Assembly (NCBI GenBank): GCA_951406725.2 | Contig: OX597816.1 | Span: 171,802,001 to 171,866,000 of the forward strand | Direction of reading: 5' to 3' | DNA length: 64,000 bases | From: Octopus vulgaris | Taxonomy: Eukaryota | Shown here: positions 4,581 to 56,975 of the stretch, piece by piece | How the letters are laid out: each line of letters opens with the position of its first letter | How positions within the stretch are numbered: the stretch's first letter is position 1 | Translations under genes and position numbers: made by a program | Notes under the pieces: generated by a model | What the model was told of the DNA's origin: nothing | Seen by the model: only the letters and a program-made list of their open reading frames with translations | Database searches by the model: none

Positions 4581-4758
4581 GATTTTTTTTTCCTCTGTCT
4601 TCCCTTCTCGGGATCTTTCCTTCTCCTATGTTTCCGACGAAGAGCTCCGTTCGAAACGTTAAACCCTCCTTCTTCCCTTCTTTCCTGAGCGTCCAATAAT
4701 ATTTTATTTGTTCCACGTCCTTGCGTTGTTGTATTTTTTTGTTTTCTTGTTTGGATTA

Positions 4759-5516: not shown

Positions 5517-5614
<98 letters not shown>
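5450..5614. repeat. (TCTA)n/(TA)n microsatellite
   Basis: Read directly from the sequence. Confidence 0.95.
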
Positions 5615-5615
<1 letters not shown>

Positions 5616-5839
5616 TTTATTTAAAGCAGCAAAAATTCAACAAAATCTGTTACTCTGAGTTTCTCGTTGCCGTTCATCAGACAGTTTCTAACAAAAACTG
5701 TCTGATGAACGGCAACGAGAAACTCAGAGTAACAGATTTTGTTGAATTTTTTGCTGCTTTAAATAAAGCATATTACTCTACCACTGGTACTTGAGTACTC
5801 TTTTTTTCCACCTTGTTTCACATTTATGTGTTTACTCCA

Positions 5840-8114: not shown

Positions 8115-8537
8115 ATAAATTATTAGAGAGTTATCCACTATGTGGATAACTCTAGTGCTAAAAATAGCTCCGAAGCAACCACAGAAGAACAGTTTCCAAC
8201 TAGAATCAACATACATTTGACGGAGGGAAAGTGAAATACAACGAATAAAATAGATTGACTCTATACAATTGTTTCATTACTAATGTAATATGTAGTTTTA
8301 CTTACACTCACATCTATAAATCTTCGGTCAAATGTATGTTGATTCTAGTTGGAAACTGTTCTTCTGTGGTTGCTTCGGAGCTATTTTTAGCACTAGAGTT
8401 ATCCACATAGTGGATAACTCTCTAATAATTTATGTATAAATTTGTATTTTCTCCGTAGTTTTTTGTGCTAAGCCACTTGGTGTTAAATTAATGGTATTAT
8501 TAAATTAATATCGATTTTTCACCCTCATTTATAATTT

Positions 8538-45121: not shown

Positions 45122-45308
45122 TAATCCAAACAAGAAAACACAAAAAAAAACAAAAAAACAACAACGCGAGGACGTGGAACAAATAAAGTATTATTGGACG
45201 CTCAGGAAAGAAGGGAAGAAGGAGGGTTTAACGTTTCGAGCGGAGCTCTTCGTCGGAAACATAGGAGAAAGAAAGATCCCGAGAAGGGAAGACAGAGGAA
45301 AAAAATCG
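45117..45308 (-). mobile_element. HHR-bearing short element (copy of 4581-4762), HHR at 45226-45260
   Basis: On the - strand: gttt CCGACGA a gagc-tcc-gctc GAAA cg TT aaac. It abuts (TA)n. Confidence 0.8.
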
Positions 45309-46093: not shown

Positions 46094-46158
<65 letters not shown>

Positions 46159-46163
<5 letters not shown>

Positions 46164-46962
46164 CCAAGAAAAAAGCAACAAGAATGGATCAATTGATTAG
46201 TACAATTGTTTCATACTAAAAACATTTAATTTCAAGCTGCAAATATTACAGCAAATAAATGTCAAGTATTCATCAGCTAAATCACATATAGGTTTTCCAT
46301 ATATTCTTAGAGAGTGTAAATATCCTTATGAAGTTATAGGAGTGAGTCCCATGAGTCTGAAGTAAGATTCCAAGCAGACTATATATGTTTTCCAACAATA
46401 CAAAGTTTTTAAAATGATTATTAACATCCCAGAGAAGATAAATCTACTCATAAAAATGTGGGTATAAGTTCCAAGAGGCATGAGGAAAGATGCTGGTCAT
46501 ACCACGGTTAAGTTCGCATCTAACTGTTGCAGACAAACTGTTGCAGACAGATAGAATTTTGTCTTCTCTGGGATGTTAATAATCATTTTAAAAACTTTGT
46601 ATTGTTGGAAAATATATATAGCCTGCTTGGAATCTTACTTCAGATTCATGGAACTCACTCCTATAACTTCATAAGGATATTTACACTCTCTAAGAATATA
46701 TGGAAAACCTATATGTGATTTAGCTGATGAATACTTGACATTATATTTGCTGTAATATTTGCAACTTGAAAAAAAATGTTTATAGTATGAAACGATTGTA
46801 CTAATCTACCGATCCATTCTTGTTGCTTTTTTCTTGGTTATAATCACCCCACATAATTTTATGGTTAATACCATAAAGAATCCTGGTGCATCTAAGTTAA
46901 GTACCATATTCATTTGAATTCATTTGAATTCATTTGAATCTTAATTGTTTTTGCTGAAATTA
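46159..46962 (+). mobile_element. Fold-back element C: ~285-bp inverted arms, ~115-bp spacer, ~120-bp tail, within (TA)n
   Basis: 46159-46443 is the reverse complement of ~46557-46842 with few differences. Both arms carry an HHR. Confidence 0.88.
46717..46806 (+). ncRNA. Type-I hammerhead ribozyme with extended stem II (mirror copy at 46195-46283 on -)
   Basis: gatttag CTGATGA atact...(~48 nt)...agtat GAAA c(g/a)attg TA ctaatc. The mirror copy has the perfect palindromic stem III caattg. Confidence 0.78.
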
Positions 46963-47233
46963 TATATACATATATATATATATATAAATTAAATTAGAGA
47001 TAAAAACACTATTAGGTAAATCAAACAGTGATAAACATAAATCAAAACATAGAAGTAAAATTAATTAATATAATATACAAAATATATAAAATATAAAATT
47101 CAAAATTTAAATTATTTAAATTTAAAGTTAAAAATCTAAAATTATTAATTTATATTTATAAATTTATATATATATATTTTGTTAAATATATATAACTATC
47201 AAAAAGTATAAAAAGTTTAATATAAGATAAAAA

Positions 47234-48953: not shown

Positions 48954-49840
48954 AAACTTGATGGCTTATGGCCTCTCTAGCGAGCGGCTTCTCAAGAAAT
49001 GAAAGGAGGAAAGGACCTCGCTACATAATGTTTCGCTTTAGCTATCGATCGTAAGTGACCCTGTTATTTTGGGGGTTTCAAGAGACCAGCAGGAATTTCC
49101 TGAAATGCAAGCACGGTCGAAAGACCTCCGTTCTGGAGTTAGGGATGTTCTTCAGGTCGAGGAAGTCCTTTAGTATCCTCACCCGTTCCGCTATGCACAG
49201 TTTACAACGCTTGGTCCCGTTTGTGGAGGGGCCTGGATTTTCTAAGATTCTCTATGATATTGTGTGTGGAATCTCGTCGTCCTTCAGCTGCCATACATCG
49301 TCGGCTAATGACATAACGTATTTCCTTACCGGTTGGTATCCTGAAGGAGTATTTATGGTTGGAGAGGCGATGCTTGAAAGTGTTACCGGAGCAACCGATG
49401 TATCTTCGTGCCAGGGTATTGGCAGTGCTGTATCTGTTGGTGTTGGCGTTGCTGCTACCGTTGTTAATGGTACTAGAGCTGTTGGTGTTGGTGTCATTGG
49501 AAGTGGCGATGGTGTTGGTGCCGTTTCTACTGGTATTGATAATGGTGTTGTTGTTGTTGTTGTTGTTATGGTCCTCGTCGTTGATGGAGGTGCTGTCACA
49601 GCTGTTATAGATATCATTTCTGATGGCTCTGTTGCTATTTCCGTTAGGGATACTGCTATTGTTGTCGTTGATGATGTTATTGTTATTATCATTGACGATG
49701 GTGCTCCTGCTGGTTCTGTTCGTGTCTCTGCTGCATCAACAATTGGTACTGTCGACCCTGCTACTGTAGTATATGTTGGGGAAGTGGTGGATGTTGCTGC
49801 TGCCGTTAGGAATATTGCTTTGCTGTCGTTGATGTTGTTA

Positions 49841-54730: not shown

Positions 54731-54899
54731 AACTTTCTTAAGAAGAACTTAAATAAATGTATATACATATTAATATATGTGTGTATCTATGTAATATGTA
54801 TGTATATAACAAATATATACACACAAGACATTAGATAAGATAAATAGGAAGGGGCTTGAAATAGTTAAGAAATTAAGTATACAAGATATCACTAGACCT

Positions 54900-56975
54900 T
54901 ACACATCTATGAGACCAAGAAGAAGCCTAAAAGACCATAAGGAAAACTTCCAAGACAACCCATCGGTAAAACTTATATGCGTATCTAAATCGAATATAGG
55001 TATGATTAGAAGGCTATACTAGATAGGATAATACTTAAATTAAAAATGTGAAACCAAACTCAAATTGTGGTCTGAAACCAATGAAATTATCGCATGATTT
55101 AAAATCCTAGGGAAGAAAAACAAGACCAATATTGTGCAGTTAAAAATGTTGAACTACTACCAGTTCATAAACCCTGTTCTACTAAACAAAGCATTATCAT
55201 TTGCTAAAACCAACTCCGACCTCACTGGGGAAGATATAGTTTTGGCGGCTAGGAGCACTATAATAGAATATGGAGGTAAACTCTGTACTCGATCAGACAG
55301 CGTTGATGCATTCGATATAAGAATGGCGTCTACCGATTCCGCGCAAGTGACGGATACAGAAGGCATATACCTATTATCGAAAATAGAATCTTGGCTCCAG
55401 AATATAGGGTGGAGGATTATATAGAGACAAGGCTTTATTCACTATACAAAAAAGTAGCAACGTAGAAATAGAAAGATGCGAGAAAAACTTTTTTTAATTC
55501 TTTTGAAAGTTGAGTTTGGAAAAAAATCACCGAGTGGTAAATTTCGTAGGCGTAAAGCTTAGCCTCGTCGATAGGTCAGGAATTCTTTGCAGCATTAGAT
55601 AGGCACTTCCTAAGATCTTCCAAATATAACAAAATCATCAACAGACGTAATGTTAAATTAGCACTCGCGACCTCTCACAATCTAGAATACCACACACACA
55701 AACTAAACAATACAAAACTAAATACAATAAAACTGGAGGGGTACACGAAGCAGTCGCGACTAATAACAATGTATACGACGATAAAATGGTTGCAAATAGG
55801 GGTAATAAAAGTTCATCAGTAGCAAAAATGGATCCAAACAACACCACACAATCGACAGTCCAGCCCATACATAAGGGAACTGAGCACACGATTACAAGAG
55901 AAAGAATAAAGAGGACCACTAGTAGTAACTCCGCTGGGAGAACTGAAAAAAATAATATTTTATGTAACTACAGACGTAAAGACGAATACAGATTAAATAA
56001 CAACTGCATAGTAAAGAATATAGTTTACAAATGTGAAGTGAAGGCAAGTACACAGAAATACGTGTACATTGGTGGCACCGGAGACACCATGAAAAATCGT
56101 CTGCGTAACTATCTTACATCATTTTCCAATATACATAAAAGACACTCCACATCACTATCAAACATCGTCTGGAAGCTCAAAGAGAATGGAGTGGAGCATA
56201 CGATCCACTGGACCATTATAGAAAAAATGCTGCATCATACAACAGAACATCACGTGCATGTAACTTATGCCTAGAAAATCTCTAGAAATCATCATATCCA
56301 GTTGAAACGTTATAAGACACTCAGATTTGATTATTTCATGTAAACATAAAAGCAAAACATCCTTTGCGAAATTTTAAAAAATATTTTGAAACAGAATAAC
56401 ATCAAATGGAATTAGCATATTATAGAACAATGAAAGCACACAAACAAACAGACCAACAAATATTTAAGATGCTATACACTATATCAACAGAAACAATTAA
56501 ACGGTAACCCAACAAAAGTATCATTTATCAGTTCAGATAATAAACCCCAACAGCTGATGACTGTAGTGGCTGTACCAAGCTGTTTAATTCAGAATTTATT
56601 GAAGTTGTCATGCCTTAAATGAGAAAGAACAAAGGAATACTTGACATCAGTAGACTGAATAGTAAAATAAGTCCAACATCACCACACATACCTCCATCTC
56701 CATATAATTACCATTCATTCCTCTCTTTCCCACCAAAATGCACGCAGAGATTCATAATTCAATCAACTAGTCAAAAGGGATAAGTATCTCTCTGTTAAAT
56801 ATCCACTAATGTTATATCGCCTGAAGAAATGAACCCATGAAGATATAAACCCGATGCCCACAGATATTCTACGGACTGTAATCATCATAGAAAAACAGAC
56901 TGTGGTCTTAAAAGACATGCGATTCGTGAAAACGCGCGTAGCGATGCATTGAAGGACTATAAATTCCAGTCAAGG
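54900..56975 (+). mobile_element. PLE (Naiad/Chlamys-like) remnant with RT, GIY-YIG and 3' pLTR HHR
   Basis: LKDHKENF..SKSNIG, LLNKALSFAK, FDIRMASTDSAQVTD..GIYLL, GLYRD., CN.RRK..LNNNC..NIVYKC..YVYIGGT..TSLSNIVWKLK..IHWTII and CNLCLE. Multiple frameshifts. Confidence 0.9.
56816..56945 (+). ncRNA. Type-I hammerhead ribozyme with ~90-nt stem II insertion
   Basis: atcgc CTGAAGA a atgaa...ttcgt GAAA a cgcgcg TA gcgat: perfect 5-bp stem I, palindromic stem III, GUA site. Confidence 0.72.

What the first reader, a model, noticed from the sequence alone, without database searches (positions are those of the whole stretch)
46159..46962. Twin opposed hammerheads with extended stem II in a 285-bp inverted repeat
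Seen: both arms keep an intact CTGATGA/GAAA core, atact/agtat stem II closure around a ~48-nt insert, and GUA sites. The arms differ at several positions, so this is a real, aged palindrome rather than a perfect assembly mirror. A transcript could form a ~285-bp duplex that competes with ribozyme folding, giving a possible conformational switch or siRNA/ADAR substrate (inference).
Basis: partly seen in the sequence, partly recalled or inferred. Interest (0 to 1): 0.7.

Follow-up and report, generated by a model that had tools for sequence, protein, structure and literature searches.

The report
Back-to-back Hydra-type Penelope retrotransposon ends
This is the leftover end of a Penelope-type jumping gene (Hydra group) lying as two back-to-back pieces, each carrying the element's own predicted self-cutting RNA motif; such pairs are common in this genome and already described, and only the unusually long hairpin inside the motif stands out.

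Summary
In detail: 285-nt inverted arms (14 differences), each with an intact type I hammerhead core and a 57-58-nt stem II. It is the 3' pseudo-LTR of a Penelope-like retroelement, inserted in (TA)n as two head-to-head, 5'-truncated pieces. Full-length relatives encode a 953-aa RT plus C-terminal GIY-YIG protein with the Hydra-clade motifs (RWK, DKT, CxCx5C, no CCHH). The long-stem-II pattern matches 3,388 times in the genome (control 0); 23 divergent pairs lie among the first 100 matches. In 24 of 24 classifiable pairs one arm ends about 38 nt past the cleavage site and the other carries a further ~120-nt tail. Covariation supports the hammerhead fold, including a palindromic stem III that predicts dimer cleavage. 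The switch idea is unsupported: on either strand the antisense arm comes first and a ~275-bp duplex would dominate. Transcription and editing were not testable. Opposed PLE hammerheads are published, also for a Hydra element, and the scan noted the layout earlier in other genomes. Differences from published Hydra elements: longer stem II, tail and unit.

The parts
46095..46160 (.). (TA)n microsatellite, left side of the target
   Evidence: sequence; family ends abut (TA)n in the loci printed
46159..46537 (-). Left arm: 5'-truncated 3' pLTR of a Hydra-clade PLE on the minus strand, ending at the short end (~38-42 nt past the predicted cleavage site)
   Evidence: continuous match to family copies over 46159-46537; short end class
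46197..46280 (-). Type I hammerhead, left: stem I 46280-46277 with 46200-46197, CUGAUGA 46276-46270, 57-nt stem II 46269-46213, GAAAC 46212-46208, palindrome ACAATTGT 46209-46202, predicted cleavage after 46201
46538..46564 (.). Inversion junction: near-perfect 14-nt duplication of 46524-46537, then an 11-13-nt piece of upstream family sequence in plus orientation joined to the right arm
46565..46961 (+). Right arm: 5'-truncated 3' pLTR plus tail (alignable to the left arm from 46558)
46720..46804 (+). Type I hammerhead, right: stem I 46720-46723 with 46801-46804, CUGAUGA 46724-46730, 58-nt stem II 46731-46788, GAAAC 46789-46793, ACGATTGT 46792-46799 (self-pairs with G-U), predicted cleavage after 46800
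46843..46961 (+). One-sided tail, ~119 nt; in full-length elements this sequence runs on into the 5' UTR (cleavage site to ATG 208-212 nt)
46961..46988 (.). (TA)n microsatellite, right side of the target

Best explanation
The element is a non-coding remnant of a Hydra-clade Penelope-like retrotransposon: two 5'-truncated copies of its hammerhead-bearing 3' end joined head to head inside a (TA)n tract, likely laid down in one insertion event. Shown: family identity, the full-length parent architecture (inverted pLTR, direct pLTR plus tail, one RT + GIY-YIG ORF, 3' pLTR), two fixed 3' ends about 120 nt apart, and the rule that paired arms use one end each. Inferred mechanism: the element's protein nicks both strands of (TA)n; reverse transcription starts from each nick at one of two internal RNA sites (both carry a short TATA/ATAT-like match to the target); both cDNAs stop early and their 5' ends are joined by template jumping, which left the small templated pieces at 46538-46564. 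The hammerhead is a passenger of the pLTR. In the parent element it is predicted to cleave weakly and as a dimer through its palindromic stem III, upstream of both start sites, so an uncleaved 3' pLTR would be the template. At this locus the ribozymes are most likely inert: if transcribed, the arms would zip into a duplex.
For: Family: 2,136 first-look candidates, 40 scored, 87-97% identical. Longer copies lead upstream into a GIY-YIG frame (PF01541, E 1.9e-4, just under the curated cut-off) and an RT frame. Intact 953-954-aa ORFs in 3 of 7 loci fetched, with hammerheads in both direct pLTRs about 4.7 kb apart. 14 of 30 loci picked by the ORF start have a direct pLTR hammerhead upstream and 12 of 30 an inverted one. 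Hydra motifs present; by eye the N-terminal half is colinear with the Hydra-1_Obim and Hydra-1_Ajap proteins printed. Pairs: 23 divergent and 1 convergent among the first 100 pattern matches, 0.76 neighbours expected by chance. Of 27 divergent pairs found among 113 arms, 24 were classifiable and all 24 are one short plus one tailed arm; 16 of these 24 come from loci not picked with a tail-bearing query; unpaired arms split 30 tailed, 28 short, 1 other. Fold: 97.4% of cells pair; double-sided changes in stem I, the base and distal hairpin of stem II and the stem III palindrome; palindromes ACAATTGT, ACGATCGT, ACGCGCGT, ACCTAGGT, ACACGTGT across families. Monomer stem III probability 0.01-0.02. 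Literature: opposed min-HHRs 100-700 bp apart (PMC4209133); inverted 5'-truncated copies, one-sided tail, (TA)n (PMC8557442; PMC3846280); two internal RT start sites, both strands cut and extended, HHR cleavage not needed (PMC11167929).
Against: No phylogenetic tree with reference PLEs was built; clade assignment rests on motifs and comparison by eye. Pfam finds no family in the long ORFs. The covariation alignment (21 rows) holds only a few subfamilies, so cells are not independent events, and the number of covarying pairs (5) was not above shuffles (57 of 500). The right arm alone does not fold as a hammerhead (z -0.9; stem II base probability about 0.2). Two arm differences match subfamily polymorphisms, so two templates or gene conversion cannot be excluded. 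PMC3846280 explains the same inverted layout by self-priming on an antisense template, not two-strand priming. The tail (~119 nt) and unit (~4.7 kb) are longer than the published 30-40 bp and <3 kb. Cleavage was not measured.
Confidence: 0.92

Rival explanations
1. Same element, but the inverted arm arose by self-priming (fold-back) on an antisense or cDNA intermediate, as proposed for rotifer Penelope elements, not by priming from both target strands.
For: Proposed in PMC3846280 from palindromes at inverted junctions. Some pairs have identical or near-identical arms (0-2% in L107, L006, L011). The junction here holds an inverted piece of adjacent family sequence.
Against: A fold-back copy should end anywhere or at the same end; 24 of 24 pairs use the two different fixed ends, either arm can be the longer one (L109 and L111 versus L110), and unpaired arms use both ends equally.
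Confidence: 0.2
2. The locus has been co-opted as a regulatory RNA: a transcript forms a long duplex that gates the ribozyme or feeds ADAR or siRNA pathways.
For: Either strand would fold into a 274-280-bp long-range duplex; both cores are intact; PLEs give small RNAs in rotifers (PMC3846280).
Against: Intact cores are the family norm (103 of 113 arms, by a search that itself favours intact motifs). The arms have drifted like neutral copies (11 private changes, several inside stem II). The energy gap of over 400 kcal/mol leaves no switchable state. No host gene was evident among the window's frames of 150 aa or more, which are repeats and mobile-element remnants (no gene prediction was run).
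Confidence: 0.05
3. A non-autonomous foldback/MITE-like DNA transposon or a retrozyme with fixed inverted repeats.
For: Long inverted repeats, high copy number, TA target.
Against: Arm lengths and inversion points differ at every locus; the sequence continues upstream into an RT + GIY-YIG ORF; no tandem hammerhead units here, which define non-LTR retrozymes (bioRxiv 10.64898/2026.07.22.740005).
Confidence: 0.02
4. Assembly mirror artefact.
For: Long inverted repeats between microsatellites are prone to it.
Against: 14 differences between arms, a one-sided tail, a complex junction, and the same asymmetric layout at 23 other loci.
Confidence: 0.01

Closest known systems
Hydra clade of C-terminal EN+ Penelope-like elements (Craig et al. 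2021, PMC8557442), especially Penelope-13_HM and Hydra-1_Obim
   Same: RWK, DKT, CxCx5C linker, no CCHH, CxxC and CxH around the conserved E and N, (TA)n target, 3' type I hammerhead. Penelope-13_HM is listed with a 5'-truncated inverted copy and a hammerhead on each strand (supplement files S1-S2).
   Different: Stem II spans 57-60 nt here against at most 24 nt in the 26 Hydra rows of file S2; stem III is 2 bp with a 4-nt palindromic loop against 3-4 bp with a 1-3-nt loop; unit about 4.7 kb with Asn-rich inserts against generally <3 kb. The hammerhead of Hydra-1_Obim is a different sequence, so this is another family.
PLE-associated type I / minimal hammerheads (Cervera and de la Pena 2014, PMC4209133)
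   Same: Type I core, 4-bp stem I, enlarged stem II, short stem III with palindromic loop, pLTR location, dual motifs on opposite strands 100-700 bp apart.
   Different: Their helix II is 6-8 bp; here it is a long interrupted hairpin with a covarying distal stem. A comparable 53-nt stem II is listed for spike-moss PLE-X1_sMoe, so long stems are not unprecedented in PLEs.
Poseidon element of Anolis (PAc; Frangieh et al. 2024, PMC11167929)
   Same: Two 3' ends that define a tail, AT-rich target, hammerhead upstream of the RT start sites.
   Different: Other clade; its ORF starts inside the hammerhead, here about 210 nt after the cleavage site; the tail there corresponds to the usual short extension, here about 119 nt.
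Adineta vaga EN+ Penelope elements (Arkhipova et al. 2013, PMC3846280)
   Same: Head-to-head inverted pLTR, tail on one arm only, Asn-rich (about 30%) inserts in the ORF (29% over residues 470-810 here).
   Different: 31-bp tail, discernible target-site duplications, different clade.

Membership tests
EN+ Penelope-like element | Single ORF with RT and GIY-YIG endonuclease | tested here: met
   953-aa ORF in L159; YRDD at 355 and VIY...YYIG at 833; PF01541 weak hit on P0001. The window copy itself has no ORF.
EN+ Penelope-like element | Partial tandems forming direct pLTRs that hold a hammerhead | tested here: met
   14 of 30 ORF-start loci have a direct upstream hammerhead; both pLTRs in L159, L160, L161, L162, L163
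EN+ Penelope-like element | Inverted 5'-truncated copy at the 5' end and a tail on one side only | tested here: met
   tail about 119 nt, longer than the published 30-40 bp
Hydra clade | N-terminal RWK motif; DKG changed to DKT | tested here: met
   RWK at 37, DKT at 124 of P0021 (definition)
Hydra clade | Linker CxCX5C; CCHH motif absent; CxxC and CxH flanking conserved E and N | tested here: met
   CKCRIKSKC at 814, a single C inside the GIY-YIG core, CQLC before E and CVH at 941
Hydra clade | Insertion into (TA)n | tested here: met
Hydra clade | Generally short (<3 kb) | tested here: not met
   hammerhead-to-hammerhead unit 4.66-4.71 kb; described as typical, not as a diagnostic, and one listed member exceeds 3 kb
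Hydra clade | Placement in the RT phylogeny | not tested
   reference sequences seen only in the paper's supplement and compared by eye
Neptune / Nematis clades | CX2-5CxxC linker and CCHH motif in the endonuclease | tested here: not met
Naiad clade | N-terminal endonuclease | tested here: not met
   GIY-YIG is C-terminal
Type I hammerhead ribozyme | CUGANGA, GAAA and UH core with stems I-III | tested here: met
   base of stem II is A-U here and G-U or G-C in relatives
Type I hammerhead ribozyme | Self-cleavage | not testable with these tools
   needs an assay; monomer fold is unfavourable
Type I hammerhead ribozyme | Match to an Rfam hammerhead model | tested here: not met
Non-LTR retrozyme | Tandem head-to-tail units each with a type I hammerhead, no ORF | tested here: not met
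   arms are opposed, and the family has its own ORF

The most novel reading that the evidence does not exclude
This Hydra-type family keeps a 57-60-nt stem II under structural selection as a working part of the element (for example a docking arm for its own RT-endonuclease), and its strict 'one short arm, one tailed arm' rule is the genomic footprint of a dimeric enzyme priming from both strands of (TA)n at two RNA sites 120 nt apart. With intact, 99%-identical full-length copies in the genome, it would be a ready system to settle how Penelope elements make inverted repeats and what their hammerheads do.
Probability: 0.35. Interest if true: 0.5.

Novelty: new member of a known kind. Interest (0 to 1): 0.22.

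Why it matters
The locus itself is an ordinary decayed insertion. The family has modest value: it adds a high-copy, recently active Hydra-clade PLE whose hammerhead is too long for the published descriptors and for Rfam, so long-stem PLE hammerheads are probably under-counted (the 'half core' cases of PMC8557442 may be the same thing; inference). Its long tail makes the two 3' ends easy to score, which gives a clean genomic test of the open question of how PLE inverted repeats form.

Tried and rejected
Rfam: no hammerhead match; the MIR1435 hit (43.7 bits against 94) only reflects the hairpin. Type III topology and a stem III made of the left arm's CAATTG hairpin were considered from the sequence and dropped: neither gives a UH site. 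My first clade guess, Neptune, was dropped after reading the Hydra definition. Two-template origin of the arms: inconclusive, 2 of 14 sites only, and L003 shares the right arm's state. Expression: no RNA holder listed; the contigs laid come from other family copies and cannot show level, strand, cleavage or editing; flanks were not examined for transcription. Five distant long-stem hammerhead loci (L113-L117) gave no tblastn match to P0021 at E<=1e-3 (0 of 5), so their link to PLEs is not shown. Pfam gave nothing for P0002, P0020 and P0004. The paper on dimer-cleaving PLE hammerheads (Lunse, Weinberg and Breaker, RNA Biol) is not held; I saw only its citation and the summary in PMC6765202, and it may describe long stem II variants. 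Literature searches for a prior report of long-stem-II Hydra hammerheads or of this family listed none, which is weak evidence. Sequence look-up in the scan's earlier findings: none.

Full report
Observation. The window holds two inverted arms, 46159-46442 and 46558-46842, 115 nt apart and flanked by (TA)n. They differ at 14 of 285 columns. Each arm carries, in its own sense, a 4-bp stem I, CUGAUGA, a stem II closed by AUACU/AGUAU around a 47-48-nt insert, GAAAC, a 4-nt loop, and GUA. Rfam does not recognise the motif.

It is a repeat family. The right arm has 2,136 first-look candidates in the own genome, of which 40 were scored, at 87-97% identity. In the 30 loci fetched, the 3' ends are fixed and abut (TA)n while the 5' ends vary, and many loci have an inverted copy in front. 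About 95 nt of the 'spacer' is further family sequence on the minus strand. The true junction, 46538-46564, is a near-perfect 14-nt duplication plus a short piece of upstream family sequence in the other orientation.

The parent element. Walking upstream through longer copies gave a GIY-YIG frame, then an RT frame, then complete units: 3 of 7 loci fetched have intact 953-954-aa ORFs between direct repeats that each hold the hammerhead, about 4.7 kb apart. Of 30 loci picked by the ORF start, 14 have a direct and 12 an inverted hammerhead upstream; the tail runs on into the 5' UTR, with the ATG 208-212 nt after the cleavage site. Several copies are 99% identical, so a sister subfamily was active recently; its protein is 73% identical over 593 residues to that of a subfamily closer to the window copy. 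The protein has RWK, DKT, CxCx5C, no CCHH, and CxxC/CxH around the conserved E and N, the diagnostics of the Hydra clade as defined in section 11 of PMC8557442. By eye its N-terminal half is colinear with the Hydra proteins in that paper's supplement. No tree was built. A 76% match within a protein annotated as Octopus sinensis suggests an octopus-like host (inference).

The hammerhead is real as a conserved fold. An exact pattern for the long-stem-II motif matches 3,388 times against 0 for the reversed control; a tighter, subfamily-level pattern matches 237 times. On 21 aligned copies, 97.4% of cells pair, with double-sided changes in stem I, the base and distal hairpin of stem II, and the stem III palindrome. 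Caveat: these rows represent only a few subfamilies, and the count of covarying pairs alone was not above shuffles (57 of 500). Across more distant families the stem III octamer changes but stays palindromic, and 99 of 113 arms carry ACAATTGT or ACGATCGT; the right arm's ACGATTGT occurs in 8 and self-pairs through G-U. The monomer stem III is predicted at 0.01-0.02 probability. This is the dimer-dependent design described for metazoan PLE hammerheads, which cleave weakly in vitro (PMC4209133).

Twin arrangement. Among the first 100 matches there are 23 divergent pairs within 6 kb and 1 convergent pair, against 0.76 neighbours expected by chance. Arms end either about 38 nt (range 32-44) or about 128-173 nt past the cleavage site (loci not de-duplicated). 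After de-duplication, 113 arms gave 27 divergent pairs; 3 had an unclassifiable arm and the other 24 all combine one short and one tailed arm. Eight of the 24, including the window's own, were picked with a tail-bearing query; the 16 others were not. The script's anchor missed some pairs seen (L111, L122, L123); L111 and L122 follow the same rule and L123 has one unclassifiable arm. Either arm can be the longer, ORF-bearing one (L109, L110, L111).

Mechanism. Shown: two fixed ends, one per arm, in a (TA)n target. Inferred: both target strands are nicked and each primes reverse transcription at one of two internal RNA sites; the truncated cDNAs are joined head to head. This fits the in vitro behaviour of the anole element, which cuts and extends both strands, starts at two internal sites that define the tail, and does not need hammerhead cleavage (PMC11167929). 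The alternative in print is self-priming on an antisense template (PMC3846280).

Ageing is supported: 11 differences are private to one arm among 28 close copies, about 2% per arm; two others match subfamily polymorphisms and leave a two-template origin open. The switch is not supported: each strand has one sense ribozyme, preceded by its antisense partner, and the whole element folds with 274-280 long-range pairs at about -480 kcal/mol against -4.2 and -14.6 for the hammerhead-constrained arms. Whether the locus is transcribed or edited is unknown.

Comparison with what is known. Opposed PLE hammerheads 100-700 bp apart are reported in PMC4209133. Inverted 5'-truncated copies, one-sided tails and (TA)n targets are reported in PMC8557442, whose supplement lists the Hydra element Penelope-13_HM with a hammerhead on each strand. 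Differences here: stem II of 57-60 nt against at most 24 nt in 26 Hydra rows, although PLE-X1_sMoe has 53 nt; tail about 119 nt against 30-40 bp; unit about 4.7 kb against <3 kb. Three earlier notes of this scan describe the same layout in other genomes.

Papers seen: PMC4209133, parts 1-2 of 4 (results, discussion, start of methods); PMC11167929, parts 1-2 of 4; PMC8557442, passages, section 11, supplement parts 1-2 and search hits; PMC3846280, PMC6765202 and PMC3088659, passages; bioRxiv 10.64898/2026.07.22.740005, part 1 of 5; Lunse et al., citation only.

Verdict. A real but ordinary product of Penelope-like retrotransposition; a new family of a known clade with a longer-than-usual hammerhead stem II and tail. 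Interest 0.22.

Noticed in passing
window 5613-5830: A second, small twin opposed hammerhead insert between (TA)n tracts (cores at 5651-5680 minus and 5702-5731 plus), short stem II, tail on one side; the motif resembles the Hydra-2_aMil row of PMC8557442 file S2.
   Followed up: partly
window 54810-56274 (+): Broken remnant of another PLE, 35-43% identical to P0021 over RT and endonuclease pieces.
   Followed up: partly
window 4634-4660 (+) and 45230-45256 (-): Two copies of a minimal hammerhead-like motif with CCGACGA in place of CUGANGA, from another repeat family; a similar stretch lies next to L015.
   Followed up: no
window 8264-8327 (-): Degenerate long-stem hammerhead-like motif with the same GAAACAATTGTA end but CCGAAGA core.
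   Followed up: no
window 49202-49735 (-): Frame with a GIY-YIG-like stretch (YIGCS...FKHRLSNH) after an Asn-rich run.
   Followed up: no
L163/L164 (G000:C2:37615500-37629000): Two near full-length elements head to head, one with an intact 954-aa ORF.
   Followed up: no
L113-L117 (G000:C1): Further hammerhead families with 42-69-nt stem II and other stem III palindromes; no PLE ORF found beside them.
   Followed up: partly
L105 (G000:C1:192512073-192512788): Rare convergent pair with two short ends and shared private changes (2 differences in 147 nt), perhaps a local inverted duplication.
   Followed up: no
window 46184-46208: Private changes in the left arm create a perfect CAATTG hairpin around the cleavage site that would compete with stems I and III.
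   Followed up: partly
protein P0017: A public gene model named as an ankyrin-repeat protein contains a 76%-identical piece of this family's RT region, probably a gene-prediction chimera.
   Followed up: no
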